DNA of 64,000 bases from Candidatus Bathyarchaeota archaeon (lineage in GTDB: Archaea > Thermoproteota > Bathyarchaeia > Bathyarchaeales > Bathycorpusculaceae), in assembly GCA_963707955.1 (NCBI GenBank), contig OY970176.1, forward strand, positions 864,001 through 928,000, read 5' to 3'. The notes below the pieces were generated by a model that did no database searches, had not been told where the DNA came from, and was given only the letters and a program-made list of their open reading frames with translations. Both the position numbers and the translations under genes were made by a program. Shown one piece after another: positions 302 to 64,000 of the stretch. Position 1 is the first letter of the stretch. Every line of letters begins with the position of its first letter.

Positions 302-495
302 AAGGTTCAGCTTTAATGATTAATGGATTTCTTACCACATCGAAAAGAAGCCTGGTCTTACCTTATTATGTTGAGCGCGCGCGGATACGGTGTTACCAGC
401 GTGTTACGAAATGTTTTTCGGGCGCTAGTTGTGATAAGCTAAAATTCTAGTCTCTGCTCTAGACATGCACGCAGGCTAGGCAAAAGGGGTTTCTG

Positions 496-1275
496 TTGTC
501 GTCTCGACGAAGTCTTGAAAGACTGAAAAGAAAAGCACCGCAACTGCTGGTTCTAGCCATCGTTGCCGTCGTGGTTGGAGTCATTTTGTTGGGTACTTTG
601 GAAGACACTTTGATCGAGGGAGGCACTTTCAGAGGCACGCCGCTTGATGTACTGTTGAACGCTGTCGTCATGCTTACGCATAACGTTACGGCAACCGTTT
701 CGTCTTGGGGTTATGCTGGAATCTTCCTGTTGATGCTACTTGAGTCGAGTTCTCTGCCCATTCCAAGCGAAGTGGTACTTCCGTTCTCAGGCTACCTCGT
801 TTCTCTGGGCCAGCTTAATTTGTGGTTAACCATTTTGGTTTCAACTCTTGCAGGAATATCTGGCTCGTTGGTTGATTACTACATTGGAAAGAAGGGAATG
901 AACCTGCTCGCCCATCGGAAAGCTCTGGGCCAGCTACTTTTCAATGAAGCACGCTTGGAAACGGCCGAGAGGTGGTTCAGTAAATATGGAGCTCCCACGG
1001 TGCTTCTGAGCCGCATGGTTCCAGGGTTTAGGACACTTGTGTCGTTTCCAGCAGGGGCAGTAAAGATGCCGCTGGCAAAATTCATCGCATACACGATTGC
1101 TGGGTGTCTATGCTGGAACGCCCTCCTAACTTACATCGGCGTGTACGTGGGCGCTAACTGGCCAGAGGTCGCTGGGGTATCACATTACTTAATCATAGGA
1201 CTTTTGGCGGCGATCCTAGCGGCGTTCATCGTGTTCTTGATCAGGAGAAAAAAAGGAGCGCAGGTTCGGGTTTGA
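496..1275 (+). CDS. dedA: DedA family membrane protein
   Basis: Motifs LESSSLPIPSEVVLPFSG, SRMVPGFRTLVSFPAG and WF.KYG, typical of DedA/SNARE_assoc proteins. Confidence 0.9.
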   Translation: MSSRRSLERLKRKAPQLLVLAIVAVVVGVILLGTLEDTLIEGGTFRGTPLDVLLNAVVMLTHNVTATVSSWGYAGIFLLMLLESSSLPIPSEVVLPFSGYLVSLGQLNLWLTILVSTLAGISGSLVDYYIGKKGMNLLAHRKALGQLLFNEARLETAERWFSKYGAPTVLLSRMVPGFRTLVSFPAGAVKMPLAKFIAYTIAGCLCWNALLTYIGVYVGANWPEVAGVSHYLIIGLLAAILAAFIVFLIRRKKGAQVRV

Positions 1276-1458
1276 CGGGTTAAGTTTCACGCTGCTTTGA
1301 ACACGTAAGATTCTTAAGAAGCTGATGTTCAGTACGTAACTTCAAGGAAGATGTCCCGCAAAAAGATATCGTGGGCGCGCGCTATTCTTTTTTTTGAAAC
1401 TGATTTCAGACAAATCTTTTATAATGGTTGCACTCTTCTGAAGAGGCAGGGTGAAAAC

Positions 1459-1824
1459 ATGGGAAGTTTATGGCTGGGAGCTTTCGTTGGCTTTCTCATA
1501 ACACTGGGTCTTGGGTGGCTGTTTCCAGGACTTGGACACCTCATAGGCGGGTTCATTGGTGGGTTAGTGGCAGGGCTCATAGCTCGAGGGATAGGAAAAG
1601 GAGCGTTAGCCGGTTTCCTCGCGGGAATATTCGGCGGGATCATCATCGCAGTACTAGTAGCAGCAGGTTTAACGGTGGCAGGTGGAGTAACGGGTGGGGT
1701 GCAAGGCGGAGTTTTTGGGTTCCTGTCAGGACTAGCCCTTGGAATCGCAGTGATTATCGTGGCTGCCTTCGGCGCAATCGCCTCAACGATAGGCGGACTC
1801 ATAGGCGGATTGCTCACAAGATAG
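1459..1824 (+). CDS. Gly-rich membrane protein (DUF5518-like)
   Basis: GxxxG-rich hydrophobic repeats; ATG at 1459 follows a GGTGA RBS. Confidence 0.7.
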   Translation: MGSLWLGAFVGFLITLGLGWLFPGLGHLIGGFIGGLVAGLIARGIGKGALAGFLAGIFGGIIIAVLVAAGLTVAGGVTGGVQGGVFGFLSGLALGIAVIIVAAFGAIASTIGGLIGGLLTR

Positions 1825-1860
1825 AAAATTCCCCATTTTATCTGTTCAGAAGAGCGCGTT

Positions 1861-2115
1861 TATTCACCTATTATTCATGTTGGAACAGCACAATCAAGAT
1901 GCACTCTAATGGAGATCAACGAAAAGACAGGCATCAGGACCAGGACAACTACCGAAAAGCCAAACGTTCTCATGACAAGGGACCCAGCGTGTGTCAAACT
2001 CGCTTTTCCACAACCTTTGGTTGTCGAACTTCATGACGAGATTCCTGCACTAGGCCGATTCATTCTGCGGGAAGGTTTGACAGTCGCAGGTGGAACTATC
2101 GTTACAATGTCCTAA
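1861..2115 (+). pseudogene. Orphan fragment resembling EF-1alpha/HBS1-type GTPase domain III
   Basis: Frame reads YSPIIHVGTAQSRCTL...DPACVKL.FPQPLVVE...IPALGRFILREGLTVAGGTI, like the C-terminal barrel of aEF-1A; no G domain upstream. Confidence 0.65.
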
Positions 2116-2669
2116 AAGTAGGCTGCTGTCTGCCCGCGTGGTCAGCTAACCCGCTTCTAGACACTGGCTGATTGTTCAAACCAGCATCCTGAAGAGGACA
2201 ACTTGAGGAACGTTCTGCGAAAGAAAAAGTAGCTTATTCCACAAACTTCACTGAACGACCCGCGCGCGCGAGTTAGCGCGCGCTAAGATTATGCCAGAAT
2301 AAGACTAAGCGCGCTAGTTCGAAGTCTATGTCTATTGTTGAGAAGGAAATCAGTCTTTCTTCTTTTCTTCTCCCTCAACCCCTTCCTTTATTCCCTTTCC
2401 AACACCCTTCACAACTCCAAAGCCTTTCTTAAGGCCTTTACCGATGGCTTCTCCGGTTTTCTCTGCAGCCTCTTCAGCTTTGCCTTTCTTTTCCTTTTTT
2501 TCAGGAATTCTTTCACCTCCAATCTAAAGATGCGTCTCAACTAGCTCATTTAATTCTTTTGCCACGGTGGATCCTCAGGAAAAACACGGTGCCGATTACT
2601 CAGATAATAGTCTAAATTCCCATTTATAAATATCTCAAGATCCTTTCCGGAGGCGCGCGGCGTCTGACT

Positions 2670-3355: not shown

Positions 3356-3509
3356 AAGCTACTACAGCATTCGTCGTAGCTTCTACTGACTTAAGAAGGT
3401 AGCGACGATCCCGCGTGCTACTTGCGCCTTCTGAAGACCGCGCGCGGCGCGCGTTTTTCTTTCGAAACTCTTATCTTTGGTTTTGCTGATACTGAAATAG
3501 GATCAGGCA

Positions 3510-3710
3510 ATGGTGTTGTGTCCTAGGTGTGGAAACGAAGCATTAGATTCATCGACGGAGTGGGAATTTGCTGATTTCCACGTCAGGCTTTTTGTTTGCT
3601 CCAAATGCAAGAAGACATTCAAGGCATATTATCGAAAGGGAAGGTTAAGTCATACCATACCCAAACGTTCTGGACAAACCTTTCATTCAGGGTCAGCGCA
3701 CGCGCGCTAG
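3510..3710 (+). CDS. Small zinc-ribbon protein
   Basis: CPRC...CSKC pairs in a 66 aa ORF. Confidence 0.65.
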   Translation: MVLCPRCGNEALDSSTEWEFADFHVRLFVCSKCKKTFKAYYRKGRLSHTIPKRSGQTFHSGSAHAR

Positions 3711-3987: not shown

Positions 3988-4149
3988 AACCCACAGTATT
4001 CTCTTTTTTCCAGTTCCCGGAAGCTACCCTCCGCTTCCATCTTATGCTCCCAGTGCGCGCTAGTTCATATTTCTGCTTCATAAAAAACTTATGCCGCCCA
4101 CAGCAAAAGTGTGAGGTTGCCCCAGATGAGGAAGCGGAGATGATGTGGA

Positions 4150-4623: not shown

Positions 4624-4760
4624 ACCGAAAAAGCCAATAGACCTATCTGTCTATTGGCGAAAGAATCCCGAATTAAGAAAGAAGCGCTAAACTCTTTTGA
4701 ACGGCAAGTATAAAAGATTGAAGGCGCGCGCTGAGAATGATTAGCGCGCAACGATTGAGA

Positions 4761-4888: not shown

Positions 4889-5098
4889 TTAAGTTTTTGC
4901 GCGCGCCCTGGCCAATGCGAGTGCTTCTTCTAGTCTCCTTACTTTCTTAACGTTGCTCTTTCCATGTTTCCATGTTCTTCGACTTTTCATTCTTTTCAAG
5001 AATCGTTCTTTTTTCGCCTGCTTCTTCTTGGATCGTTTCAAACAAATCTTCCTTCTCAGAATCAAATAGTAACAACAAACAAGCATTATAACCTTCAC
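4889..5098 (-). CDS. Small highly basic protein
   Basis: K/R-rich ORF (KRSKKKQAKKERFLKRMKSRR...); start uncertain. Confidence 0.35.
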   Translation of the reverse strand: MKVIMLVCCYYLILRRKICLKRSKKKQAKKERFLKRMKSRRTWKHGKSNVKKVRRLEEALALARARAKT

Positions 5099-5609
5099 CT
5101 GAATAATCCGACAAAATCTAAGACTTAATGAGAAAGAAGTTCATTAGAGTATTGAGAGTCTGTTTATGAGCAGGCGCAGACGGTTTGACAGACTTGAATG
5201 TCGGGGTTTGCATTTACAAAAGCAGCACGTACTGCTGGAGACAGTGCCCGTACAACATCTGGAAGAAGGAAGAATACTAAATCTCGCGGTGAGCGAACGC
5301 AACGATTTTGCTCTCTTACACACGCCCTTGCACCAACGTCTTAGCCTGCTTAGACTGTCCTATGGAAACCAAGGCAAACCGATTCTATATTATATACGTG
5401 GTTTTCTCAACTTTCCATAGGACAGCTCAATGGTCAAAGCAGTGCGAAGAGCGGTTGCTTCTTCGCTGCAGGGGGCTGAGTTGCGTTCTCATCGGCTACA
5501 CACTCGAATAGCCTTCGCCCTCCCGCGCGCGTCTTTCTTGATGAGCATGACCATTCCGACTGAATGTGCTCTTTCCATCCTCTTCAACTATCGAACAGCT
5601 TAGCGCGCA

Positions 5610-5696
5610 CTATCTTACTCTCTTCCTGTTTCTCCGAAGCAAGCGTTTGTTTGGGAGTTTTGGTTTCTTCACACGTTTTGCATCCGTTGCAGCCAA
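5610..5696 (-). CDS. Tiny Lys/Arg-rich protein (MAATDAKRVKKPKLPNKRLLRRNRKRVR)
   Basis: Read manually: GGAGG RBS upstream, TTG start, TAG stop. Confidence 0.4.
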   Translation of the reverse strand: MAATDAKRVKKPKLPNKRLLRRNRKRVR

Positions 5697-5851
5697 GACT
5701 AGACCCTCCAAATAGTTTTGCTTCTCGTTTCTCTTAAAGCTAGTGTACAGCGCGCCCTAATGATAGTGGAGACGACTTACAGATTTAGCGCGCTGGATCG
5801 ATAGGCATGCGGAACATGCTAGAAATCAGCTATTAACCCGAAAATCTTGCA

Positions 5852-6040
5852 TTAGCGTTTAGCGCGCGCGCTTAGCTTCCTTACCCATTCTATTTTAGTA
5901 GAGTAAACTTCACGCAATTGTGGAGAAGTAATGGGTTTCCATTCTTGAGCCACTGCAAGCATTCGACTTTTGGATTTACTATTCTTGCCTTTTCGTTTGG
6001 GTTTTTCTTTCCTTATCGGTTTATAATGTTCAGGTTTCAT
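5852..6040 (-). CDS. Small basic protein
   Basis: 62 aa K/R-rich ORF with an ATG start and a TATA-like element upstream (~6078-6084). Confidence 0.4.
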   Translation of the reverse strand: MKPEHYKPIRKEKPKRKGKNSKSKSRMLAVAQEWKPITSPQLREVYSTKIEWVRKLSARAKR

Positions 6041-6506
6041 GTTCGATCTCTGCTAGTTCAAGCTTAGATACCTAACATATATAGAAGTTTTGTCACTTTT
6101 TTGATTTAGCGCGCTTTTACCAAAGGGTTGATACAGGCTATTTCCATGAATGAAACAAACCCGCGGGCGTGTCATCTATTTTTTGAGCTTTACGACGGGC
6201 AGATGTAGATTGGTTTTCCCTGTGTTCTCGGTTTCACGTGATTGTGCCTTGAGGAAGATCGCTTGGCCGCTTTTTATGTCCAAAACATCTGTCTTTCCTG
6301 AAGATGTCAGTTTTAGTTTGGCACCTTAGCGCGCGCGAATCTGGGACAAGGGAGCCGCACGAAAATATCCTCACGATGCTCTGTTGGTTAATCGGTTTAT
6401 AAGGAGGTTTGCGCATTATGGGGCAGTAGCGTTCTGTTGTTGAAGGACGAGAAGAACACAGCAACGTTGCACGTTACAATGAATGATGAAAAGGGGTGAT
6501 TTGGAA

Positions 6507-8745: not shown

Positions 8746-9464
8746 TAAAGACCACTCCTAATAGTGCGCGCGCATTCGATGACGCTTAAGCTTCCGCTTC
8801 TCCCCAGTCGCAACTGCCGTTCACCGCTGAACCAGGTTACTTTGCCATTTTTGATGTCAACCACGTCGCCCTTATGCACCATGCTGATCTGGTGGTTCCA
8901 TAAGCTCATTTTCATTGAACCAGTTTCGTCTTTGATAAGTGCGTTTGATATACAAGCCGTCGTTCCATATCTCGTGTAGACGATTTTAGATTCTGGAATC
9001 TCGAGCACCTCTGCTTTGACGCTGACTTTCTTCATTCCGACTTTCAAGTCACCAATCTTTGAGGTTACACCCTCGAAATTCTTGAATGAGGAAACTCTGG
9101 CCAAAATTGCTTTTGTGATGCTTTCAAGCTGATTCTCTCCCTGCAAGATGGCAATCGAAATCGGAAATTGAGCTATAACCTTCCCCGCGCGCTTCCGACC
9201 ATGGGTAAAGAGAAAAATCGCTGAATTCTTCGTCCTCACACGACATTTTACAGCCAACTGCCCACATTCTGACCCGTCGTAATTCCAAGCTTCGACAATG
9301 CGATCAAAGAATTCACTCGAATCAACCTTATGCAGCACCGCGATTCTGGCAAGGCTCTCCAGAATCCTTCCATCCTTGTACGAAGGCCTGCCGTTAAGAG
9401 GCCTGCCTCTACCTCTCCAAATCTGCTTAGCCATCAAACTTGTTTCCACTCTGCTTTTTTTCAC
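8745..9464 (-). CDS. Protein with a C-terminal OB-fold ssDNA-binding (RPA/SSB-like) domain and an unknown N-terminal domain
   Basis: KIGDLKVGMKKVSVKAEVL...IKDETGSMKMSLWN...LRLGRSG; stop overlaps the tbp start (TAATG). Confidence 0.8.
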   Translation of the reverse strand: MKKSRVETSLMAKQIWRGRGRPLNGRPSYKDGRILESLARIAVLHKVDSSEFFDRIVEAWNYDGSECGQLAVKCRVRTKNSAIFLFTHGRKRAGKVIAQFPISIAILQGENQLESITKAILARVSSFKNFEGVTSKIGDLKVGMKKVSVKAEVLEIPESKIVYTRYGTTACISNALIKDETGSMKMSLWNHQISMVHKGDVVDIKNGKVTWFSGERQLRLGRSGSLSVIECARTIRSGL

Positions 9465-9809
9465 TCAACAAATCCATCATTAAAATAATAGATCTGGAAT
9501 GTGCATCTCAATATTGTCAACATCGCTTATATAGCTTAGCTGCTAGGCCTACCCTTCTAATGTTATTGAAGTCGTCTGAGGTACGCCCTCACGTTTAGCG
9601 CGTTCTAGCTGAGCACTTCGACTCTTGCTCCTATTCCTTGTCCAAGTGTGCCTTTGTGGAATTTTGCTGTGACAACGCGCGCGCTGTAGAAAGAAACATG
9701 CAAGGATTTCAGGTGTCCATAGAAGTTTATTAGTAGAATTGACTGACAGTAAATATGGATGTGATGGTTTATATTTGAAGGTGAGAGAACTGAGATTTTC
9801 TGGGCAGGA

Positions 9810-10969: not shown

Positions 10970-11233
10970 ATTTGGATCCAAATATGTAACATCCTCCAGC
11001 GCGCAGGACTGGTCGAGTGTTAAGCAGGGCAGTTCGAAGCAATAATGGACACGGTCCCTTTGATGGGTGAGGTGATGAGTTCGAGAAGAGAATGGCATTG
11101 CGGTGGAACGCCTGAGCTAATTCATCGATGGACGTCTTCTCAAGGAATGTTGCAGTAAGGGCTCTTCTGTTTCCACTGGTGTTACAACCAGCAGCAATCC
11201 TTCTGGAATGGCGTGCGTAGTTTTGGTTTGCGT

Positions 11234-16137: not shown

Positions 16138-16313
16138 AGCCTTCGTGAATCCTCTGTAGGTATCTGGATCGACGCGGTATTTTATACCAATGTGTGGTAC
16201 TGGTCAGTCTAGAAATTAGTACGGTCAAAGACGAGCGCTAGGTTGTTCCGAGAATATGTTAGGCGCGCCATTGAGTGTAGATATTATAAGCTGAACGCTG
16301 TTACAAGCTAAAG

Positions 16314-16529: not shown

Positions 16530-16743
16530 CCCAGCACGAGCGCGCATGCTTGTTCCTAAATTCCGTTGAAGAGAGGTGCATGGCGTTTTCCGATGGTTGA
16601 TGGTTGCTGTCGCGGTTCGAGTGGGTTCTCGCTTGCTCACACCCTCCCCCCGGGTATCCTATATGATCCAAATATGATTGAAGAGCAGAATGAGCAGCAC
16701 TGCGTTGAGTTGGATGGGCTTGGACTGAAGTCGCAAAGGATAT

Positions 16744-18572: not shown

Positions 18573-18651
18573 CTGCAAGCCGCATACTTTGCAGTTCTTC
18601 GGTACCGGTGCGTTATTGGCGCGCGCGCTCAATTTGTCACAATCGCATGTC

Positions 18652-24678: not shown

Positions 24679-24684
24679 CATATC

Positions 24685-37866: not shown

Positions 37867-37880
37867 TGTTTCACCACCAC

Positions 37881-38674: not shown

Positions 38675-38677
38675 TGC

Positions 38678-41811: not shown

Positions 41812-41814
41812 GCA

Positions 41815-42522: not shown

Positions 42523-42630
42523 ACACACTATTGACACCGAATCAGGTGAAATCCAACTTCTGTCTCTACACCGTCACAAACTACAGCAATTCTAATAACA
42601 TAACAGAACTTTTCTAAGAAGCAGAAGAAA

Positions 42631-43773: not shown

Positions 43774-43892
43774 CATGATAGGCCTTCTAATAAGCCATTG
43801 TAGGGAAGACATAGCACTAGCGCACGCTTGTCCGCTTTGTTATGTTCTAAACCGTTTGTCTAGTCTGTAGCGCGTTCTTAGAATTCTTCCTT

Positions 43893-45571: not shown

Positions 45572-45688
45572 TGTTGCTTCTGCCCTTCCTCATACTATAT
45601 TACAGAAAATACTGATTTCATCATTGATTATCAAGGGACAAGCGCGCGCTTAAAGAATCTATATGCGGAACCCTGCATCTCTTTTCAC

Positions 45689-46316: not shown

Positions 46317-46666
46317 TATAGCTAACTATTATATAAACTTATATATCGCGCGCAAAAGCCTGAAGGAAGTGTTCAGACCCGTTTCTTTGTTCTCTTTGAT
46401 CCGCCGTTCAGACCTTTCAGTATTGCATAGTTTTCCCTGATGCTTTCATGAAGAACGGCAAAGGGGTCTTTTCGGCACTTTGCCATCTCTTAACCACGCT
46501 TCTATCTCAATCACATCATAAGACCTGATGTCTTTTATGACTTATGATGATCTTATACACCAATGTATTATACACTACTGTATAATTGACCATTGTTACA
46601 ACAATGTCACTAACTTCTGTATGCACTAATGCATTTTGTTATGAATCCAAAATGTAGCATAAGCTT

Positions 46667-52603: not shown

Positions 52604-53114
52604 GTGCTTATCACACAACAATGTACATATGCTCCCAACCTGTTAAAAGAGTATTTCAGCGATGCATGCACAGCGCACGATATGAATCAGAGTTCAGTCA
52701 AAGATCCTTTCACAAGTCATAAAAGGTAAGCATCTCACTCAGCACCGTGATGAAGGAGTTAATTATAAATAATAAACATGAAGATACGAGGCGTTCAGGG
52801 TCAACCTATGACTGAAGTTGATAAAGGACTAAAGAAGTTCGGTATCACAGTGTCCAAGCCAGTGCTGGCTGCAATTGCCATAATATTCGGTCTGCTAGTC
52901 ATAGCATTTCACGACTTGCTTCAGTGGATCGTCGGATTGTACTTCATAATACAGGGCATACTGCTTTTCATAGACTACTATGAACTGAGAAGAAAATAGC
53001 GTAGAGCAGAACAGAATTCCCCACACTTTTTTCTCCTATGCGAAGCGCGCGCAGACATGTGCTTTATCGAACAACAACATATGTATGCTTTCAACTCGTT
53101 AAAAGAGTATTTCA
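52596..53114. repeat. Imperfect ~63-bp direct repeat (52596-52658 and 53051-53114) covering the nurA promoter/start
   Basis: gcagacatgtgctt...gttaaaagagtatttca is present in both copies. Confidence 0.85.
52778..52999 (+). CDS. Small membrane protein
   Basis: Two TM helices (LAAIAIIFGLLVIAF; IVGLYFIIQGILL). Confidence 0.7.
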   Translation: MKIRGVQGQPMTEVDKGLKKFGITVSKPVLAAIAIIFGLLVIAFHDLLQWIVGLYFIIQGILLFIDYYELRRK

Positions 53115-53228
53115 ACCGGCGCGCCCGCGCTGAAAAGGTGGTAGACAGCAAATATCGCATTGCAGAGCCGATGCTGGCCTATGGTATTCTTAGAGAACCT
53201 TTCAACGAATGATGGCATTTAGTAGACC

Positions 53229-53256: not shown

Positions 53257-53380
53257 TAACACCTCGATTCCCAAAAAACAAAACGGGCAAGATGCGGGAG
53301 CCCTAGGTACTGTCATGCTTGTTTTCTCGTTCTAAATCTTGTCTTCAAAAGAGTGCGCGCGTTGGATGGAGACTTGGTTC

Positions 53381-53740: not shown

Positions 53741-54060
53741 TTCGATTTGAAAAATAAGAATCAGTCAATTTAAGCCTTCGCATTTTCTGCTACACCATCC
53801 CTCTATCACCTTTCTTAAGCCAGTTTATCCAATTTACTCCTAGAAGAAAACGGTCATGTGGCGACGGGCGCGCGCACTTCAATTCGTTACACTTGATGGT
53901 TCTTTCCACATTCTGCAAACCTTCTCAAAATCACAATTTGTTACAGTCCGGTCGACAAAAGAATTTCGCCAAGTCAGTATTGCTAATAGCGCGCGCGGCC
54001 TTCATCCACGACTACGCGAACTCTTTTAAATATTAATCTTCACAAAGAACAAAGAACGAC

Positions 54061-54897
54061 GTGATAGAAATGAACGACAGTTTTCCGCCGGTAACAATCC
54101 GTGACTCAGAATTGAGGTTCCTTAAATCGAGATTGTTGGGAAAAGAGTACAAGATTCAGGTTGCATTACCGGCAGGTTACGCTGAGAGCAAAGAAACGTA
54201 TCCTGTTCTCTACCTGTTGGACGCGGATAACTGCTTCGGCGATATCACTGAGACCGTTCGCTTCCTGGCAGCTGTTGGGAAAACGTTCAGTATGGAGGTG
54301 CCCGATATGATCGTCGTCGGCATCGGGTACCCACTTGATTTTGCGAAACCATCCGAATACTATACAAGATGGGGTAGCGCGCGCTCTAAAGACCTCACGC
54401 CTACCAAAGTGGAGCCAAACGCTTTATGGCCTTTATCTGGCGGAGCCAGCGATTTTATGGCCTTCATCCGGGATGACCTCAAACCCCTGATCAACTCGAA
54501 CTATAGAGCCAACCCTGAAGACAATACCATACTAGGAGTTTCATTTGGAGGTCTGTTTGCGCTATACGTACTCTTCCACAGACCAGACACTTTCAATCGC
54601 TATATCGTCCTAAGCCCATCATTATGGTGGGACAAGAAAGTGACATTCGATTATGAGCGTGAGTACGCCAACGAACACACTGAACTCCCCGCGAGACTGT
54701 TTCTATCCATAGGCTCACTAGAAAAAAACGACTCGCAAGATCATCTACGGGAATTTGTGCAAATTCTTAAAAAAAGAAACTACAAGGGTCTTGAATGGGC
54801 TTCCCATATTTGTGAAGGCGAAAATCACATAACCGCCTTTTATGCAGCAAAATGCCGAGCAATCCTCTTGGTATTCTCATCGCCAAAGAAAGACTAA
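54061..54897 (+). CDS. Alpha/beta-hydrolase esterase (IroE/BesA-like)
   Basis: YPVLYLLDA, IVVGIGY, GVSFGG nucleophile elbow, SPSLWW, GENH. Confidence 0.9.
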   Translation: MIEMNDSFPPVTIRDSELRFLKSRLLGKEYKIQVALPAGYAESKETYPVLYLLDADNCFGDITETVRFLAAVGKTFSMEVPDMIVVGIGYPLDFAKPSEYYTRWGSARSKDLTPTKVEPNALWPLSGGASDFMAFIRDDLKPLINSNYRANPEDNTILGVSFGGLFALYVLFHRPDTFNRYIVLSPSLWWDKKVTFDYEREYANEHTELPARLFLSIGSLEKNDSQDHLREFVQILKKRNYKGLEWASHICEGENHITAFYAAKCRAILLVFSSPKKD

Positions 54898-55007
54898 GCC
54901 AGAATGCTGCAGGAACGTCCGCCCAATTTGCAGACACGTGAAAGCGCGCGCTAGAGCACAAGCTTTAAGCATCTCAAAAAGTGAGCTGTTTGGGCTGGGG
55001 GTAGAAC

Positions 55008-55511
55008 TTGGACGAAAACATTGCAGAGGTTATCTTTGATCCTGAGGCTAAACGAATTGTGAGGATGACTTTTTATCGTGATGATCTTCGTTTCCGGTGT
55101 ATACGCTGTGCTGTCTTCTGCTGCAAGCTTGGGGGACCAATACTCACTAAGAGCGATATGGAGCGTGCAAAGCTGGCAGGACACTGGTTGGAAGACTCTT
55201 TGGAGACAACAGCGGATCCGAAGTTCAAGCGCTTGCCTATGACTGTTGGAAACTTAAAAAACAATAAAGCCGGATCGTGTATTTTCCTAAAATCCAGCCC
55301 AAGGAGAGGAGTTTACGAGTGTCCGATCTACGATTCTAGACCAGCTCGCTGCAGATTGTACCCGTTCGACTTTGAAACAATCAGTCCGAACTCCTTCACG
55401 CTTAAACTTATTCCTTGCTGCAACGGCCTAAACGCTGAAGATGGTGAGTTGGTGAATGAAAACTTCATTACGAAACATTTGCTTAACGCCTTGTTGGACC
55501 TGTTCGTATGA
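55008..55511 (+). CDS. YkgJ-family cysteine-cluster protein
   Basis: FRCIRCAVFCC, CIFL, CPIYDSRPARCRLYPF. Confidence 0.88.
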   Translation: MDENIAEVIFDPEAKRIVRMTFYRDDLRFRCIRCAVFCCKLGGPILTKSDMERAKLAGHWLEDSLETTADPKFKRLPMTVGNLKNNKAGSCIFLKSSPRRGVYECPIYDSRPARCRLYPFDFETISPNSFTLKLIPCCNGLNAEDGELVNENFITKHLLNALLDLFV

Positions 55512-55611
55512 GCGCGCGCTGTTACGCTGGACTGTTACAAAAGCCCATCAAAAACGGGTATTCTCAGTTAGCGCGCGCGATTATTGTTTTGAGCCTCAAG
55601 CGCGGAAGTTT

Positions 55612-56877: not shown

Positions 56878-56976
56878 TGAAATAGACCTCTGAGCCTACG
56901 GTACAAGAAAACATATAAAAGCTTGATGAACAGCCCACTGCGCGCGCCACTTGAGTATCCTGTTTTTCTGCATCTG

Positions 56977-57399: not shown

Positions 57400-57802
57400 A
57401 TCAAAAGCCCCTTCCTACATTTACTAAGCAACATTTTCATAAAAAAACATTGCAGCAAGATCCGTCCCATTGACCGGGAACCCCTGCTCGTTCTTCCGCG
57501 CGCGCAAAATAAGGATTAACTGTTTTTGATGGACTTTCGTAACGATTTTGCTGTAACGATCAGTAACAAGTCCAGTTTTTCTGGAATTCTCAGAATTACA
57601 ATGAACACAACGTTGATTTTTGAGGTTTTGTGACACTTTGCTGAAAGAGACCAGTTCTCAAAGAATTGGGCTTCTTTTTGCGGTACCGCAATGAAATATT
57701 CGCAAGAATGTGGAGCGCGCTCTGGTTTTTGAACTCTACCACACGCTTCAGTATTAGCGAGTCTGCAGAAGCAAGAGTACGCATAACAAATGCAGTCTTT
57801 GA

Positions 57803-58327: not shown

Positions 58328-58733
58328 TTGGAGTTTCCCTGAACGTTCTATAATGGAAAGAGGGATAAGGCTTGTGAAGTCTTAATAAATATCCAGAGTC
58401 CAACCCTCGCGGTAGCGCGCTAGCGTGTTCCTAAATTCCTTTTCTTAAGTGTGATAGAGTTGATTTGCGCCTTCTGAACGATGCTCATCGTATCCCGACG
58501 TCCATCACTATCCATAGACGGAGTAAAGCCGGAAGCACAAGATACTCTGCAAACGAATTCAGGAACAGGCATGCGCGCGTAACAAACCGTCACAGAAATT
58601 CTTTTCTACGAAGGTTTGTAACAATCATTAATTTCGGACTCTCTTCTGCCTGTGTTGAAAGAATTGTAAAATGTAACAAGTTACTTTGCGCGCTGTTTTT
58701 CCATGAAAAACGGTGAATATCTTATGAGGAACC

Positions 58734-60918: not shown

Positions 60919-61117
60919 CGAATCAAAACCATTTTTGACCATTTTAGGAACACGCATGCGCGCTATCTTATGCGAGTGAGCGCAAAATCAATAAATATCA
61001 GTGAACGGCAAATTAGCGCGCGCCAGATGGAGTCTGAAATGAACTCATCGGCAAAAAGACCCTATCGAAAAAAGGACTCGCGCTAGACGCAAGCGGATAA
61101 AATCAGCAAAGAGAGGC

Positions 61118-61885
61118 GTGCGTATGCATATGGAATTCTTCAACTCCTATCAGGATGCCAGACGCGCAGAAACCTACGCGAAGCTCGAGTTTCCAGTCAC
61201 GTACTATTTGGCCTACAGGGATCTGCCTGAGATCATACGCGAACATGCCAAAGGGAGAAGAGCACTTGATTTTGGATGCGGAGCTGGACGTTCCACGCGT
61301 TTTCTGCGGAGGCTTGGACTCAACGTTGTCAGCGTTGACATTTCAGAGGACATGCTAAAGAAGGCAAGAGAACTGGACCCCAAGGGCGATTATCGTCTAA
61401 TCGAAGAGGACAACCTAGGCCAGTTTGAGGACAATGCCTACGACCTTGTGCTATCCGCTTTCACGTTCGACAACATTCCCACAATGGAAAAAAAGCTGAG
61501 GAATTTCAAAGAGCTTAGACGTCTGCTGAAGACTGAAGGAACCCTAGTTAACCTGGTCTCGTCACCAGAGATCTACACGCACGAGTGGGCGTCTTTTTCC
61601 ACGAAAGACTTTCCAGAAAACAAACACGCGAAGAGCGGAGACAAAGTGAGAATAATCCAAACAGACCTGAACGATAAGAGGCCGGTGCAGGATGTTGTCT
61701 GGACGGACGAGTCTTACCGAGAGACCTACATGAGGGCCAGGCTTGGATTGGTCAAGACCTACAAGCCATTGGCAAAAGAGAGTGAGCCGTACGAGTGGGT
61801 CAACGAAACGAGGATTGCGCCATGGGTCATCTATGTGCTGAGAAAACTTGGTGGACGCTCTGGCCGAAGCGGGCGCTCTTCTTAG
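61118..61885 (+). CDS. Class I SAM-dependent methyltransferase
   Basis: ALDFGCGAG, VDISEDML, YDLVLS. Confidence 0.9.
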   Translation: MRMHMEFFNSYQDARRAETYAKLEFPVTYYLAYRDLPEIIREHAKGRRALDFGCGAGRSTRFLRRLGLNVVSVDISEDMLKKARELDPKGDYRLIEEDNLGQFEDNAYDLVLSAFTFDNIPTMEKKLRNFKELRRLLKTEGTLVNLVSSPEIYTHEWASFSTKDFPENKHAKSGDKVRIIQTDLNDKRPVQDVVWTDESYRETYMRARLGLVKTYKPLAKESEPYEWVNETRIAPWVIYVLRKLGGRSGRSGRSS

Positions 61886-61945
61886 GGAAGGCTAATAACA
61901 TTGAAAGAAACTCACAACGCTGACTGACAGAAGGGGCAACGAGTC

Positions 61946-62518
61946 ATGGTCGTGGATTTAAATTTTCGTCCGCTCACTTCTGAAACGTGGCAGGATCTTC
62001 AGACGCTTTTTGAAGAGGATAGAGTGTGTCGCGCTTGTTGGTGCATGTGGTGGAGGATTTCAGCATCAGATTGGATGAGGCAGAGGGGCAAAGATAATAG
62101 AGAAGCCATGGAAGCAATAGTGAAATCTGGAAAAGTTGCCGGCATACTGGCTTATTCTGATGACAAACCGATCGGCTGGTGCTCGATATCGCCTAGAGAG
62201 GAATATTGCAGGTTGGAAAGATCCAGAACTCTCAGAAGAATTGATGACAAACTAGTGTGGTCCGTTGTATGTTTCTTCGTTGGTAAACCTTTCAGGGGAC
62301 ACGGTGTTGCAACCAGATTGCTCGAGGCCGCTGTTGCATATGCTGGAAAGCAAGGAGCCAAGATTGTAGAAGGCTATCCAAGCAGGTCAAACGAGAAGCA
62401 ATCAGACCGGTTCGTTTACACTGGCCTTATGTCTTCGTTCGAGAAAGTCGGGTTTCTTGAAGTTCAGAACAGTTCCAAGAGCAAGGCAATCATGCGGTAC
62501 GTGTTTGAAGGCAAGTAG
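61946..62518 (+). CDS. GNAT family acetyltransferase
   Basis: CWCMWWR, VCFFV..PFRGHGVA..LL, VEGYP, FEKVGF. Confidence 0.9.
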   Translation: MVVDLNFRPLTSETWQDLQTLFEEDRVCRACWCMWWRISASDWMRQRGKDNREAMEAIVKSGKVAGILAYSDDKPIGWCSISPREEYCRLERSRTLRRIDDKLVWSVVCFFVGKPFRGHGVATRLLEAAVAYAGKQGAKIVEGYPSRSNEKQSDRFVYTGLMSSFEKVGFLEVQNSSKSKAIMRYVFEGK

Positions 62519-62673
62519 CGACAACGTCTGATCGATGTTAGTAGAAAAGGAGATTTTTGAGAGAGGCATCTCCGTGAGCTATACGATGCGATCAACCCAT
62601 TGGCTTTTTGAAACGATGCCGTTTTCGCTCCCTTTTTGGCTTGTGGTCCACTGGGCTCAAGCACGCTCTGGTT

Positions 62674-63602
62674 TCAAGTTAGGCATAGTATGGCAACGCC
62701 GATGATTGCAACGACTGCCCCTAGAATGCCGCGCCAGTTAGTCTTTTCTCTGTAGATTATCCACACCACTGGAATGATGAGAACTGGCATCAAGGACATC
62801 AATGTCTGCGCAATGCCTGCCGCAATGTAGGCTACAGCCACCATTGAGAGCGTCATGCCCAAGAACGGACCTACCACTGCACCGGCCGCAGTATACTTGA
62901 TTCCCTCTTTGTCCTTCACGGCCCGGTGCAGGTCCGGCAGTTTTCCCGCGAAAAGAGCACAAGTCCACACGAAAACACCTGCCAGCATCATCCGTATCAG
63001 TGCGACAGACACCGGATTCACCGCCACGCTCACGCCGAGGTACATTCCCTTTTTTGAGAGGGCAAGGCCGAACCCTTGACCCATGGCCGAAATCACGCCA
63101 AAAAGCACTCCCCAAGTCTTCCGGTTCTTTGCTGCAACTTCTCTTCCGCCTTCTCTTCCGAAGTCTCCTCCTGCTCCAACAAGACAACGGCGATCCCTGT
63201 CAACGTGACAGCTATTCCAAATATCGCCAATGGTGAGATCGTCTCTCCAGACATCCAGTACGCGCCTAATGCCGCAAATATTGGAGCCGAGGACTGGATT
63301 AGAACCGAACGCCGCGGACCGATCATGACGTACGCTGCAAACAACCCGAAATCACCGATGCCGAGCCCAACGACGCCGCTCAAACCCAGCCATAACCATT
63401 GCCCGCTGCTCGCAAGAGGCAGCAGAGTACCCAACAAAACGACATGAGCACAAGCAAGAAGCCCAATGGCCATTATCGTGCGATACGCGTTGACGCTGAA
63501 CGAACCAAACCTTCTGCCAGCCGACGTGAAAAAGATGCAGCTGAACGTCCATAAGCACGATGTGAGAATCGCAGCTGACTCTCCCAAGACACTTGAGTCC
63601 AA
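62674..63602 (-). pseudogene. EamA/DMT family transporter split by a frameshift near 63140
   Basis: Two EamA halves (63093-63602 and 62674-63108) lie in different frames. Confidence 0.8.
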
Positions 63603-64000
63603 AGGCCTCACTGTTAGATTAGGGCAAAACGACCCGGATAACCTTAAACCTTTCCCACAGTCCGCGCCGTTTAGGTTTAGAACAGCAGTTAGCCACGCGA
63701 GACGAGAAGACATGGATGAACTGGTTCAAGAAACAGAGCATGGCCTCTAAGACGTTCAGAAGGGATCTGCGTGCTTGGATACTGTGAAGATTATGATCAG
63801 GTTAAAGGATAATGCGCATTCTTCATGCGGATGGCCCGAAAACTTCACGAACTTCTCAGAAGGGCTTATGTGGTGCGCGCGTGGAAGCGTATACGTTTTG
63901 CATATACGGAGTAGCGCGCTGAATCATTTACTAATATTCCTGTCTGCTGATGATCTATTTTCTGCAGGAACCTCTGATTCTGATTCTGAATTCATATCTT

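What the first reader, a model, noticed from the sequence alone, without database searches (positions are those of the whole stretch)
375..63920. Highly iterated GCGCGC palindrome (HIP1-like) marking host intergenic DNA
Seen: roughly 50-55 GCGCGC-containing runs by eye, often as (T/C)TAGCGCGCGC, for example at 375, 1375, 2261, 2276, 3440, 4724, 5862, 9677, 18619, 21335, 22293, 45642, 53045, 55571, 58415 and 61017. Most are between genes or at gene ends. A rough random expectation at ~45% GC is under 10. Between 22.3 and 45.6 kb I found only one (39064), and the island's other intergenic gaps lack it. Established: cyanobacterial HIP1 (GCGATCGC) is a similar over-represented palindrome, and alternating CG favours Z-DNA. 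Inference: a lineage-specific chromosomal signal (chromatin/SMC binding, methylation, termination or recombination site) that also dates foreign DNA.
Basis: seen in the sequence. Interest (0 to 1): 0.72.

Follow-up and report, generated by a model that had tools for sequence, protein, structure and literature searches.

The report
GC-repeat scars at DNA rearrangement joints
A short alternating G-C palindrome is greatly over-used between the genes of one group of uncultured archaea, and it sits where DNA has been deleted, inserted or swapped, so it looks more like a scar of break repair than a regulatory signal.

Summary
The window has 56 alternating G/C runs of 6 or more bases: 84 overlapping GCGCGC matches against 10.2 +/- 3.6 in shuffles.

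- **Genome-wide:** GCGCGCGC is the most over-represented 8-mer, 16-fold overall, 77-fold in intergenic DNA and 4.9-fold in coding DNA.
- **Lineage:** the excess is seen in 10 of 10 congeners (Bathyarchaeia MAGs). A relative of equal G+C has O/E 0.4.

It is not HIP1-like. It is intergenic, and no C5 methylase or Vsr was found. The N4/N6 methylases do not follow the trait.

New result: the runs sit at structural-variant joints.
- 39 of 127 homology-block ends between two species lie within 5 bp of a run (3.2 expected).
- In 11 of 20 simple large indels the short allele is a bare (GC)3-5 run.
- Other congeners carry the long allele in two of these cases, which makes them deletions. A third is probably one too.

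Runs look born perfect and then decay about neutrally. They never exceed 11 bases, prefer the A(GC)nT form, and are missing from a recently acquired low-G+C defence island. At most 7% are ends of an IS5-family IS/MITE. The genus carries a Ku-LigD end-joining operon.

Best reading (0.5): scars of break-and-rejoin events. The enzyme is not identified. The scan earlier noted a different hyper-abundant palindrome (AGGCCT) in Nanohaloarchaea.

The parts
375..383 (.). run GCGCGCGCG
1375..1382 (.). run GCGCGCGC; left edge of homology block 1384-2233
2261..2270 (.). run CGCGCGCGCG
2276..2283 (.). run TTA-GCGCGCGC-TAA
2309..2314 (.). run GCGCGC
2653..2659 (.). run GCGCGCG; left edge of block 2667-3075
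3439..3453 (.). two abutting runs CGCGCGCG + GCGCGCG between blocks 3097-3440 and 3453-4043
3701..3707 (.). run CGCGCGC
4055..4060 (.). run GCGCGC between blocks 3453-4043 and 4064-4636
4724..4749 (.). runs GCGCGCGC (4724-4731) and GCGCGC (4744-4749); left edge of block 4724-4906
4899..4906 (.). run GCGCGCGC; right edge of block 4724-4906
5105..6336 (.). about 1.2-kb insertion made of fragments separated by runs (5524, 5603, 5750, 5788, 5862, 6109, 6329). Paralogous copies and a contig of an unrelated metagenome join 5104 to 6337 through 27 other letters.
   Evidence: (joint 5104 to 6337)
5524..5531 (.). run CGCGCGCG
5603..5608 (.). run GCGCGC; left edge of block 5603-5755
5750..5755 (.). run GCGCGC; right edge of block 5603-5755
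5788..5793 (.). run GCGCGC
5862..5871 (.). run (GC)5; homology with two paralogous copies starts right after it, and those copies have no run there
6109..6114 (.). run GCGCGC; right edge of block 5872-6114
6329..6337 (.). run GCGCGCGCG; homology with two paralogous copies starts right after it, and those copies have no run there
8766..8773 (.). run GCGCGCGC at the end of the TBP block 8178-8766
9186..9192 (.). run CGCGCGC
9676..9684 (.). run CGCGCGCGC; homology with two paralogous copies ends here, and those copies continue without a run
10999..11004 (.). run GCGCGC at the end of repeat block 10605-10997
11454..11462 (.). run GCGCGCGCG
14751..14756 (.). run GCGCGC; 3 bp from the start of a block shared with G007
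16263..16268 (.). run GCGCGC
16538..16700 (+). truncated copy of a MITE of about 200 bp. Its left inverted repeat starts with the run 16540-16545 (GCGCGCATGCTTGTTCCTAAATTC). There are 23 other copies in the genome.
18450..18455 (.). run CGCGCG inside the ABC-2 permease gene, probably a chance occurrence
18619..18628 (.). run (GC)5
19844..20086 (.). variable intergenic segment bounded by runs 19844-19851 and 20080-20086. G007 has 1.1 kb of other modules here, separated by four runs.
21335..21344 (.). run (GC)5 at a joint. G007 has 170 more bases here, running to a TGA, followed by (GC)4.
22293..22299 (.). run GCGCGCG
23055..44000 (.). strain-specific island of 42-43% G+C with defence and 7-deazaguanine genes and only one run. 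It serves as the negative control.
39064..39071 (.). the only run inside the island, GCGCGCGC
45642..45649 (.). run GCGCGCGC; homology with G001 ends at it
46347..46353 (.). run CGCGCGC; homology with G001 starts right after it, and G001 has no run there
53045..53124 (.). GCGCGCGC, then 66 bp, then GCGCGC. The 66 bp match G001 DNA about 350 bp upstream of the joint, which has no runs beside it.
53355..53361 (.). run GCGCGCG
53868..53875 (.). run GCGCGCGC
53989..53997 (.). run GCGCGCGCG
54377..54384 (.). run GCGCGCGC
54944..55519 (+). run-to-run unit: GCGCGCGC, a 167-aa CxxCxxCC-domain gene, then GCGCGCGC. It is duplicated at genome 859214-859798 with the same ends.
55571..55579 (.). run GCGCGCGCG
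56940..56947 (.). run GCGCGCGC; G001 has 10 unrelated bases between the same flanks
57497..57505 (.). run CGCGCGCGC; left edge of repeat block 57499-57705
57715..57720 (.). run GCGCGC
58415..58579 (.). complete 164-bp MITE with GCGCGC-led inverted repeats at both ends
58688..58693 (.). run GCGCGC; homology with G001 starts right after it, and G001 has no run there
60940..60963 (-). solo MITE inverted repeat ending in run 60958-60963
61016..61023 (.). run GCGCGCGC
63875..63881 (.). run GCGCGCG
63914..63919 (.). run GCGCGC

Best explanation
The (GC)3-5 runs, typically A(GC)nT, are scars. They are short palindromic tracts written at the joint when this lineage rejoins broken DNA after deletions, insertions of copied fragments, cassette replacements and transposon movement.

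Each run appears to be born perfect. Runs survive where they do no harm, in intergenic DNA, and then decay by ordinary point mutation. This would explain why they pile up in the fast-changing parts of the chromosome and are missing from DNA that arrived recently.

**Shown:** the enrichment, the position at joints, the deletion polarity of two events, roughly neutral conservation, the length cap, the flank and phase bias, and the presence of a Ku/LigD end-joining operon.

**Inferred:** that end joining makes the tract. I cannot tell which of three sources supplies the G/C letters:
- (a) the few terminal bases of the GCGCGC-ended IS5-family element, left behind on excision;
- (b) filler synthesis by the LigD primase-polymerase on self-complementary G/C tails;
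- (c) staggered cutting of AGCGCGCT-like sites followed by fill-in.
For: **Joints between species.** Of 127 ends of homology blocks between G001:C1 (392 kb) and G000, 39 lie within 5 bp of a run in at least one genome. Ends shifted by 40-200 bp give 3.2 +/- 1.6. In only 6 cases do both genomes have the run.

**Simple indels.** I tallied by hand. Among the 39 colinear block pairs, 20 are simple indels with a short allele of 30 bp or less and a long allele of 80 bp or more. In 11 the short allele is a bare run, in 1 a one-mismatch run, in 8 there is none. In 8 of the 11 the printed edges of the long allele show no run.

**Polarity.**
- E4: 5 of 5 other congeners keep DNA between the flanks (0.9-1.2 kb in three, contiguous in G007, 11 kb in G008), so G000 lost about 1 kb and has CGCGCGCGC at the joint.
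- E5: 4 of 5 keep 3.2-4.8 kb (G003 gave no match), so G001 lost about 4 kb and has (GC)5.
- E1: G007 reads through the joint as G001 does.
- Window 21335: (GC)5 where G007 has 170 more bases running to a TGA.
- A separate 517-bp deletion in G007 has CCGCGTGCAAAG at its joint.

**Joints in the window.** 18 of 56 runs have a block end within 5 bp, against 0-3 when the runs are shifted.

**Joints within the genome.** 12% of 2430 repeat ends lie within 5 bp of a run, against 1% for random positions and 3% for random intergenic positions.

**Birth and decay.**
- In intergenic DNA the perfect 8-mer is counted 668 times, against 23-59 for each internal one-mismatch variant.
- Runs inside aligned DNA are conserved in 10 of 20 intergenic and 31 of 42 coding cases, close to what 92% identity predicts.

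**A bounded, phased product.**
- No run exceeds 11 bases: 6:510, 7:186, 8:267, 9:130, 10:56, 11:2.
- For lengths of 8 or more, (GC)n outnumbers (CG)n by 274 to 49 (one search counts).
- A..T flanks both sides in 87 of 177 intergenic (GC)4 and 16 of 30 (GC)5.
- Other dinucleotide repeats are not enriched.

**Repair genes.** G000 has an operon of LigD primase-polymerase, Ku, and ligase with 3'-phosphoesterase, about 30 kb right of the window. Ku was found in 7 of 10 congeners and 1 of 20 genomes outside the genus.

**The recent island** has 1 run where 7.8 are expected.
Against: - **Ku is neither necessary nor sufficient.** G016 has Ku but shows no enrichment: 7 GCGCGCGC in 1.6 Mb and hexamer O/E 0.6 in a 28-kb sample. 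G024 has a 14-fold 8-mer excess in a 100-kb sample, and Ku was not found there. The match between genus, Ku and runs is one phylogenetic event, not a statistic.
- **Most runs are unaccounted for.** Only 132 of 1151 runs have a within-genome repeat end within 10 bp. Only two events are firmly polarised. Most runs lie in DNA that cannot be aligned, so their origin is extrapolated.
- **The IS/MITE family cannot be the sole source.** Its inverted repeat is found 5, 3 and 1 times in G009, G008 and G004, which have 359, 254 and 128 GCGCGCGC. Only 85 of 1151 runs at most carry it in G000.
- **No precedent.** As far as I recall, no known end-joining enzyme writes alternating G/C.
- **Some joints point the other way.** Some have a run in both genomes with different DNA between (250446..251525). 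That fits pre-existing runs acting as break or recombination sites, that is, cause rather than consequence.
- **The conservation test is small** (20 intergenic runs) and cannot exclude weak selection.
Confidence: 0.5

Rival explanations
1. The runs come first. They are targets of a sequence-specific nuclease or recombinase, or are fragile sites. Breaks there drive deletions, captures and cassette swaps, so the run is the cause of the joint and not its product. Cutting an AGCGCGCT-like site with a 4-base stagger, followed by fill-in and joining, would give 8- and 10-base tracts that can no longer be cut.
For: - The association with joints is the same as for the best explanation.
- Units bounded by runs on both sides are duplicated as units, for example window 54944-55519. 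Of 139 full-length copies of inter-run segments, 51 have runs on both sides, 67 on one and 21 on none.
- Some swaps have a run at both edges in both genomes (250446..251525).
- The phase and A..T flank preference and the 6/8/10 length classes with a cap fit an enzyme recognising a defined palindrome.
- Close pairs of runs are rarer than chance: 18 with spacing of 20 bp or less, against 33.0 +/- 5.8.
Against: - In two polarised deletions the long allele of the relative printed has no run at either edge, so the run is new at the joint.
- At 26 of 32 joint-associated runs within 2 bp, only one genome has the run.
- No candidate enzyme follows the trait. The two methylase-Mrr fusion proteins were found only in G000 and G009 within the genus, with one partial match in G012.
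- This reading does not say how 77-fold excess runs arise in the first place.
Confidence: 0.2
2. The runs are a working cis-element kept by selection, for example a binding site for a chromatin, insulator or termination factor at gene boundaries. They appear at homology ends only because each gene unit carries its own copy.
For: - Density is 7-fold higher in intergenic DNA. It is highest in the first 20 bp after stop codons (2.81 per kb) and in convergent gaps (2.52 per kb), and lowest in the 40 bp before start codons.
- The palindromic core and the A..T flank would suit a dimeric binding protein.
- The trait is genus-wide.
Against: - Runs in aligned intergenic DNA are kept no better than neutral expectation, 10 of 20.
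- One-mismatch variants are common, as expected for decay.
- Runs are rarest in conserved DNA and densest in unalignable gaps.
- A bare run replaces 0.1-4 kb of DNA in 11 of 20 simple indels.
- Runs bracket non-genic fragments of 30-240 bp.
- A working defence island has none in its gaps but one.
Confidence: 0.15
3. The runs are ends, or excision footprints only, of GCGCGC-terminated IS5-family transposons and their MITEs. This is a narrower form of the scar reading in which the transposase is the sole author.
For: - G000 has a 1080-bp IS (DUF772 + DDE_Tnp_1, frame broken here, intact in G003 and G009) and 81 matches to its inverted repeat, which begins GCGCGC.
- MITE ends show the same A at -1 (16 of 22) as bare runs, which have 71-73%.
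- In G001 a 2.2-kb insert ending in that inverted repeat sits where G000 has a bare CGCGCGCGC.
- Two 5-base ends rejoined in different registers would give exactly 6, 8 or 10 bases and never more (inference).
Against: - At most 85 of 1151 runs carry the inverted repeat, and no second family is anchored to runs.
- G009, G008 and G004 have 359, 254 and 128 GCGCGCGC but 5, 3 and 1 inverted-repeat matches.
- TA precedes bare runs in 24-31% of flanks, against 13 of 22 MITE left ends.
- The only MITE with two alignable flanks is present in both genomes, so no filled-versus-footprint pair could be examined.
Confidence: 0.1
4. HIP1-like: a methyltransferase together with methylation-dependent mismatch repair converts near-matches into the palindrome throughout the genome.
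For: A palindromic 8-mer is 16-fold over-represented and is the top word of the genome. Clustered substitutions are seen at some orthologous runs.
Against: - The excess is 77-fold in intergenic DNA and 4.9-fold in coding DNA.
- No PF00145 or PF03852 match was found in a genome 97% complete.
- The N4/N6 methylases are strain-specific, or are shared with relatives that have 0-6 runs.
- Perfect runs far outnumber near-matches.
- Runs replace deleted DNA.
Confidence: 0.03
5. The runs are a plain (GC)n microsatellite made by slippage, or Z-DNA tracts kept to absorb supercoiling.
For: The sequence is an alternating G/C tract.
Against: - Length is capped hard: 56 runs of 10, 2 of 11 and none longer, although 267 runs have 8.
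- The phase bias is 274 to 49 and the flanks are specific.
- No other dinucleotide repeat is enriched.
- A survey of prokaryote genomes reports that such patterns are generally suppressed (PMC4060949, abstract and passages).
- From general knowledge, 6-10 bp is too short to flip to Z-form.
Confidence: 0.02

Closest known systems
HIP1 and alternate highly iterated palindromes of cyanobacteria (Elhai 2015, PMC4390886, abstract and passages read; Xu et al. 2018, PMC5861425, search listing only)
   Same: A short G+C-rich palindrome is the most over-represented word of the genome. It is lineage-specific and its function is unknown.
   Different: As I recall, HIPs fill coding and non-coding DNA alike, and Elhai reports that they go with cognate methyltransferases. 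Here the excess is intergenic (77-fold against 4.9-fold) and no methylase follows it. The runs also sit at indel and rearrangement joints, and density is far lower: about 200 8-mers per Mb against the 300-2700 HIP1 per Mb in Elhai's table.
Transposon excision footprints repaired by end joining (Tc1/mariner, hAT and P elements in eukaryotes; recalled, no paper read)
   Same: A few terminal bases of a cut-and-paste element remain at the donor site, next to the target duplication, after end joining. A GCGCGC-ended IS5-family element and a Ku/LigD operon are both present here.
   Different: As far as I know, footprints have not been described as a genome-wide over-represented word in a prokaryote. 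Extant element ends account for at most 7% of runs. Three congeners have many runs and almost no copies of the element.
Filler DNA, N and P nucleotides and templated insertions at NHEJ or MMEJ joints (recalled); archaeal primase-mediated MMEJ (PMC12019639, abstract read); bacterial and archaeal Ku/LigD (PMC11936186, passages read)
   Same: Extra letters are written at repaired double-strand breaks. Deletions carry small insertions. A 66-bp insert in the window was copied from a few hundred bp away.
   Different: Known fillers vary in sequence. Here the filler is a defined alternating palindrome with a fixed phase and a length cap.
Neisserial intergenic mosaic elements (dRS3 repeats flanking RS units) and REP/BIME arrays (recalled; REP papers seen only in the search listing)
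   Same: Short repeats in intergenic DNA bracket variable fragments and coincide with rearrangement points.
   Different: Those repeats are 20-40 bp with internal structure and, for REP, a dedicated RAYT transposase. Here the unit is a bare 6-10 bp tract with no wider palindrome.
IS5-family insertion sequences and their MITEs
   Same: A subset of the runs are truly the outermost six bases of the inverted repeats of such an IS (DUF772 + DDE_Tnp_1) and of MITEs of about 120-300 bp.
   Different: About 93% of runs have no inverted repeat beside them.

Membership tests
Highly iterated palindrome (HIP1-like) | Palindromic word many-fold over-represented genome-wide | tested here: met
   GCGCGCGC occurs at 464 sites against 28 expected (order-1) and is the top 8-mer.
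Highly iterated palindrome (HIP1-like) | Present at similar excess in coding and non-coding DNA | tested here: not met
   O/E is 77 in intergenic DNA and 4.9 in coding DNA; for the hexamer 12.7 and 1.24.
Highly iterated palindrome (HIP1-like) | Cognate DNA methyltransferase that co-occurs with the palindrome (Elhai 2015) | tested here: not met
   No PF00145 match. The methylase-Mrr fusions were found only in G000 and G009 within the genus, with one partial match in G012. A third methylase is in G000, G001 and G007 and in three relatives with 0-6 runs. Specificities could not be determined.
MITE / IS terminal inverted repeat | Run continues into a conserved inverted repeat, paired with a second copy in inverted orientation | tested here: not met
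   Met for a minority only. There are 81 matches to the inverted repeat, 22 pairs, and at most 85 of 1151 runs carry it. No other anchored family was found.
Transposon excision footprint | Same site filled by the element in one genome and carrying terminal bases plus the target duplication in another | tested here: inconclusive
   One case has a bare CGCGCGCGC against a 2.2-kb insert ending in the inverted repeat. Of 7 MITE pairs in G001:C1 and 22 in G000, only one, the same conserved copy, had two alignable flanks.
End-joining (NHEJ/MMEJ) junction filler | Extra letters located exactly at deletion or insertion joints | tested here: met
   39 of 127 block ends against 3.2 expected. 11 of 20 simple indels. 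Deletion polarity for E4 and E5.
End-joining (NHEJ/MMEJ) junction filler | Organism encodes the end-joining machinery | tested here: met
   An operon of LigD_Prim-Pol, Ku, and ligase with LigD_N phosphoesterase. Ku was found in 7 of 10 congeners.
End-joining (NHEJ/MMEJ) junction filler | That machinery produces the observed tract | not testable with these tools
   This needs a repair assay. Ku-positive G016 shows no enrichment, and G024, where Ku was not found, shows some.
REP/BIME-type extragenic palindrome | Imperfect palindrome of about 20-40 bp able to form a stem-loop | tested here: not met
   Complementarity of the flanks equals chance at distances 2-15 from the run.
DNA uptake sequence-like signal | Frequent close inverted pairs forming terminator-like hairpins (recalled property of DUS/USS) | tested here: not met
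   18 pairs have spacing of 20 bp or less, against 33.0 +/- 5.8 for random placement.
Dinucleotide microsatellite | Open-ended length distribution without phase or flank preference | tested here: not met
   No run is longer than 11 bases. (GC)n outnumbers (CG)n by 274 to 49 at 8 or more bases. A..T flanks are preferred.
Selected cis-regulatory site | Orthologous sites conserved above neighbouring neutral DNA | tested here: inconclusive
   10 of 20 intergenic runs are conserved at about 92% overall identity. The sample is small.

The most novel reading that the evidence does not exclude
This archaeal genus has a break-repair process that writes a defined palindromic signature, A(GC)3-5T, into joints. 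The likeliest agents are its Ku/LigD end-joining set, alone or acting on ends made by a GCGCGC-specific transposase or nuclease. The chromosome would then carry a readable, slowly fading record of more than a thousand past double-strand-break repairs. The palindrome's abundance would be a by-product of repair chemistry, not a selected signal. No such sequence-defined repair scar is known in prokaryotes.
Probability: 0.25. Interest if true: 0.85.

Novelty: new variant of a known kind. Interest (0 to 1): 0.66.

Why it matters
Over-represented short palindromes such as HIP1 have resisted explanation for decades. Here the comparative data point to a concrete origin: joints of deletions, insertions and swaps.

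If the scar reading holds, three things follow.
- It gives a new mutational signature for archaeal double-strand-break repair, in a lineage that has a Ku/LigD system, which is rare in archaea.
- It gives a simple marker for reading the history of structural change in uncultured Bathyarchaeia genomes, and for telling long-resident DNA from recent arrivals.
- It warns against reading every hyper-abundant motif as a selected binding site.

It also makes testable predictions for enzymologists about what LigD primase-polymerase or an IS5-family transposase does at G/C ends.

Tried and rejected
- **Methylation link.** No C5 methylase or Vsr was found. Three N4/N6 methylases were traced through 30 relatives and none follows the trait. 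The 864-aa methylase and the 377-aa THUMP-like one were not traced.
- **PolX.** No PF14792 match in the genus.
- **Hairpins from paired runs.** Close pairs are rarer than chance.
- **Wider palindrome or repeat around the run.** None found.
- **G+C content as the explanation.** G012, with 48.8% G+C, has O/E 0.4.
- **Expression.** No RNA holder was listed among 20 public runs, so transcript ends at runs could not be examined. The contigs laid show presence only.
- **MITE filled-versus-empty sites.** Only one two-flank orthologue was found, and it is occupied in both genomes.
- **Polarising further events.** E6 has its flanks on different contigs in the third genomes. For E3 the short allele is shared by G000 and G007, so polarity is ambiguous.
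- **tRNAs.** None in the window.
- **Literature.** Searches for GCGCGC with over-representation, intergenic, palindrome or archaea, and for Ku/LigD with Bathyarchaeota, found no report of this motif. Two searches failed on term format. The first was redone; the second was dropped.
- **Gene map.** It is a crude greedy ORF map. Some runs scored as coding lie in over-extended or spurious ORFs.

Full report

Yes. GCGCGC occurs 84 times (overlapping) in the window against 10.2 +/- 3.6 in 100 dinucleotide-preserving shuffles, and none of the shuffles reaches 84. Only one (39064) lies between 22.3 and 45.6 kb.

The window is bases 864001-928000 of a single 2,346,764-base contig with 47.9% G+C. In the whole genome GCGCGC is the top hexamer both against an order-1 model (1453 sites against 488) and against the maximal-order Markov model (ratio 1.51). 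GCGCGCGC is the top octamer under order-1 (464 against 28). (AT)n, (AC)n and (AG)n are not enriched.

A 6.6-kb contig of a public run reproduces window 1-4803, with eleven runs, letter for letter. That run may be the source sample. The excess also recurs in ten separately assembled congeners, so this is not an assembly artefact.

**2. Whose genome, and how wide is the trait?**

The window encodes TBP and a HerA-NurA-Mre11-Rad50 operon. The closest public records, 94% identical for the Mre11-like protein, are titled Candidatus Bathyarchaeia MAGs.

GCGCGCGC counts per genome:
- 29-434 in 10 of 10 genomes of the same genus;
- 0-14 in 8 other genera of the family;
- 0-6 in the other families of the order, except G024 with 53.

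Sampling shows that G+C content is not the cause. G012 has 48.8% G+C and hexamer O/E 0.4. G018 and G016 have 0.6. The congeners have 3.0-8.3. G024 (42% G+C) has 2.4. A published survey found that alternating G/C tracts of 6 and 8 bases are generally suppressed in prokaryotes (PMC4060949, abstract and passages).

**3. Anatomy**

*Position.* I used a crude greedy ORF map (2566 ORFs, 85% coding).
- 631 of 1151 runs, and 326 of 455 runs of 8 or more bases, lie in the 15% of the genome that is intergenic. That is 1.83 against 0.26 runs per kb.
- With region-specific models, O/E is 12.7 (hexamer) and 77 (octamer) in intergenic DNA, against 1.24 and 4.9 in coding DNA.
- All kinds of gaps carry runs. 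Density is highest just after stop codons and in convergent gaps, and lowest in the 40 bp before start codons.

*Surroundings.*
- There is no larger repeat around the run. Only position -1 carries information, and the flanks are not complementary beyond +/-1.
- The motif has a phase. For 8 or more bases there are 274 (GC)n against 49 (CG)n.
- The motif has a flank. In intergenic (GC)4 and (GC)5, A precedes the run in 71-73% of flanks. A..T brackets it in 87 of 177 and 16 of 30. TA precedes it in 27-31%, against 5.4% background.

*Length and spacing.*
- Lengths stop abruptly: 267 runs of 8, 56 of 10, 2 of 11, none longer.
- Close pairs, which could form hairpins, are rarer than chance, 18 against 33.0 +/- 5.8.

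**4. What the runs sit on**

Comparing the window with congeners gave an unexpected result. Homology comes in blocks whose ends fall on the runs.

Alignments at single joints show the run often in one genome only, exactly where homology stops:
- At window 46347 and 58688, homology with G001 starts right after the run, and G001 has no run.
- At 53045-53124, a 66-bp copy of DNA is bracketed by two runs. In G001 that DNA lies about 350 bp upstream of the joint and has no runs beside it.
- At 56940, a run replaces ten unrelated bases.
- At 21335, G000 has (GC)5 where G007 has 170 more bases running to a TGA, followed by (GC)4.

Paralogous copies inside G000 behave the same way at 5872, 6337 and 9678. 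A contig from an unrelated wetland metagenome joins 5104 to 6337 through 27 other letters. This shows that window 5105-6336, a string of fragments separated by seven runs, is an insertion.

**5. Numbers**

*Within G000.* 12% of 2430 repeat ends lie within 5 bp of a run, against 1% for random positions and 3% for random intergenic positions.

*Between species.* I fetched one whole contig of G001 (392 kb) and aligned it to G000. Median identity is 92% and 60% of the contig is alignable.
- Of 127 block ends, 39 lie within 5 bp of a run in at least one genome. Ends shifted by 40-200 bp give 3.2 +/- 1.6. Both genomes have the run in only 6 cases.
- Run density is 0.32 per kb in aligned DNA, 4.3 in gaps under 300 bp, 1.0 in gaps of 0.3-2 kb, and 0.6-0.8 in larger gaps.

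*Simple indels.* I classified the 39 colinear neighbouring block pairs by eye.
- 20 are simple indels, with a short allele of 30 bp or less and a long allele of 80 bp or more.
- In 11 the short allele is essentially a bare run, in 1 a one-mismatch run, and in 8 there is none.
- In 8 of the 11 the printed edges of the long allele show no run.

*In the window.* 18 of 56 runs have a block end within 5 bp, against 0-3 after shifting. This used only the relatives' loci already fetched.

**6. Polarity**

| Event | Short allele | What the other congeners show | Reading |
|---|---|---|---|
| E4 | G000, CGCGCGCGC | 5 of 5 keep DNA between the flanks: 0.9-1.2 kb in three, contiguous in G007, 11 kb in G008 | about 1 kb deleted in G000 |
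| E5 | G001, (GC)5 | 4 of 5 keep 3.2-4.8 kb with homologous genes; G003 gave no match | about 4 kb deleted in G001 |
| E1 | G000, GCGCGCGC | G007 reads through the joint as G001 does | deletion in G000 under two of the three possible trees |
| E3 | G000 and G007, GCGCGC | the short allele is shared by the two | ambiguous |
| E6 | G000, (GC)5 | flanks lie on different contigs | uninformative |
| E2 | G001, CGCGCGCGCG | G007 has its own 517-bp deletion in the same segment, with CCGCGTGCAAAG at the joint | the G007 joint carries a one-mismatch tract |

So in at least two cases, and probably three, the run was written where DNA was lost.

**7. Birth and decay**

In intergenic DNA the perfect octamer is counted 668 times (both strands). 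Each internal one-mismatch variant is counted 23-59 times, still 2-7 times its expectation, with transitions about twice as common as each transversion.

Random sequence would give the reverse proportions, about 8.6 perfect against 93 internal variants. The pattern fits tracts that are born perfect and then decay.

Only 62 of 209 runs on the G001 contig lie inside aligned blocks. Of those, 10 of 20 intergenic and 31 of 42 coding ones are still runs in G000. That is about what 92% identity predicts for 6-9 neutral bases. The sample is small.

**8. Mobile elements**

One repeat family is anchored to the runs. Its MITEs of about 120-300 bp have inverted repeats that begin GCGCGC(A/T)(T/A)GC.TGTTCCTAAATTC.
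- G000 has 81 matches to the inverted repeat and 22 pairs.
- There is one 1080-bp IS with DUF772 and DDE_Tnp_1 domains, that is, IS5 family. Its frame is broken in G000 and intact in G003 and G009.
- Window copies are 16538-16700 (truncated), 58415-58579 (complete) and 60940-60963 (solo end).

MITE ends show the same A at -1 (16 of 22) as bare runs. However, at most 85 of 1151 runs carry the inverted repeat. G009, G008 and G004 have 359, 254 and 128 octamers with only 5, 3 and 1 inverted-repeat matches. The family is therefore part of the picture, not all of it.

**9. Enzymes looked for**

- No C5 methylase and no Vsr were found.
- Two paralogous methylase-Mrr_cat fusion proteins occur only in G000 and G009 within the genus, with one partial match in G012.
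- Another methylase is shared with relatives that have 0-6 runs.
- No PolX was found in the genus.

About 30 kb to the right of the window, G000 has an operon of LigD primase-polymerase, Ku, and an ATP ligase fused to the LigD 3'-phosphoesterase. Ku was found in 7 of 10 congeners; the three without a match are 89, 83 and 65% complete. It was found in 1 of 20 genomes outside the genus. Ku is rare in archaea: one survey lists 19 archaeal sequences (PMC11936186, passages).

The link is suggestive only. It rests on one phylogenetic event. G016 has Ku without enrichment, and G024 has some enrichment although Ku was not found there.

**10. The island**

Window 23055-44000 was not found in any of 5 congeners searched. 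It has 42-43% G+C and encodes a defence set with 7-deazaguanine genes. It holds 1 run where 7.8 are expected.

On the G001 contig the two large strain-specific segments of low G+C (39.5% and 44%) have 0 and 2 runs. Those of native G+C have 0.6-2 per kb. So the motif is missing from compositionally foreign DNA, not from accessory DNA as such.

**11. Reading**

The simplest account of these facts is that the runs are scars of break-and-rejoin events. They accumulate where they are harmless and fade neutrally. The facts are:
- position at joints;
- runs replacing deleted DNA;
- runs bracketing copied fragments;
- birth as perfect tracts and about neutral turnover;
- a length cap, a phase and a flank;
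- absence from recent foreign DNA;
- an end-joining operon and a GCGCGC-ended cut-and-paste element in the lineage.

I put this at 0.5. Which enzyme supplies the letters is open. Each of the following is inference:
- (a) Terminal bases of the IS5-family element are left on excision. Two 5-base ends joined in register would give 6, 8 or 10 bases and no more.
- (b) Filler is synthesised on self-complementary G/C tails by the LigD polymerase, or by the replicative primase. The primase promotes microhomology-mediated joining in Saccharolobus (PMC12019639, abstract).
- (c) AGCGCGCT-like sites are cut with a stagger and filled in.

The main rival (0.2) reverses cause and effect: runs are break or recombination sites. 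Swaps with a run at both edges in both genomes favour it. The two polarised deletions, with no run at the printed edges of the long allele, speak against it.

A selected binding or boundary element (0.15) fits the position after stop codons. It does not fit the neutral turnover or the replacement of kilobases by a bare run.

HIP-like, microsatellite and Z-DNA readings fail specific tests (see the membership table).

**12. Novelty**

Three literature searches found no report of this motif in archaea or in Bathyarchaeia.

I rate this finding a new variant of a known kind, namely over-represented short palindromes and repair or transposition scars. The mechanism is unresolved.

Noticed in passing
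window 23055-44000: A strain-specific defence island of 42-43% G+C. It encodes two TGT-like (DpdA-like) proteins, QueC, QueD (PTPS), a radical-SAM QueE-like protein, FolE2, DUF6884, two BrxC/D-like ATPases, a PLD-like nuclease, a HerA-like ATPase and PIN proteins. It looks like a 7-deazaguanine DNA-modification and restriction (Dpd-like) system. It was not found in any of 5 congeners searched.
   Followed up: partly
G000:C1:957178-960233 (about 30 kb right of the window; L070 7179-10234): A complete Ku/LigD-type end-joining operon in an archaeon: LigD primase-polymerase (247 aa), Ku (281 aa), and an ATP ligase fused to a 3'-phosphoesterase (464 aa). Ku was found in 7 of 10 congeners and in 1 of 20 other relatives.
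   Followed up: partly
window 4700-9700; G000 about 1415-1418 kb and 1662-1664 kb: Several paralogous arrays of the same small modules (Alba, a GT4 glycosyltransferase, TBP, an SSB-like OB-fold protein, response regulators), in different orders at different loci. There are multiple TBP copies at 66-91% DNA identity within and between genomes.
   Followed up: partly
window 16538-16700, 58415-58579, 60940-60963; G000 389080-390159: An IS5-family insertion sequence (1080 bp, transposase frame broken in G000, intact in G003 and G009) and its MITEs. A 165-bp form has copies that are 95-97% identical in G001, so it was recently active there.
   Followed up: yes
G000:C1:1265663-1267033 and 993009-994178: Two paralogous proteins that fuse an N6_N4 DNA methylase to an Mrr_cat restriction-endonuclease-like domain. 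Within the genus they were found only in G000 and G009.
   Followed up: partly
window 46667-52621 (- strand): A conserved NurA-HerA-Mre11-Rad50 operon, 85-90% identical in G001 and G007. There is no run between 46353 and 53045.
   Followed up: no
G000:C1:2012439-2015975 against G001:C1:36188-36204: A 3.5-kb insertion in G000 bounded by a direct repeat of a tRNA-like 3' end (CCGGTTCGAGTCCGGGCGGGC...). It looks like an integrated element at a tRNA gene. There is no run at its edges.
   Followed up: no
G024 (another family of the order), e.g. C8:28423-28436: An independent, milder excess of alternating G/C: 4 octamers against 0.28 expected in 100 kb. It includes a 14-base run, longer than any in G000. 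Ku was not found in this genome.
   Followed up: no
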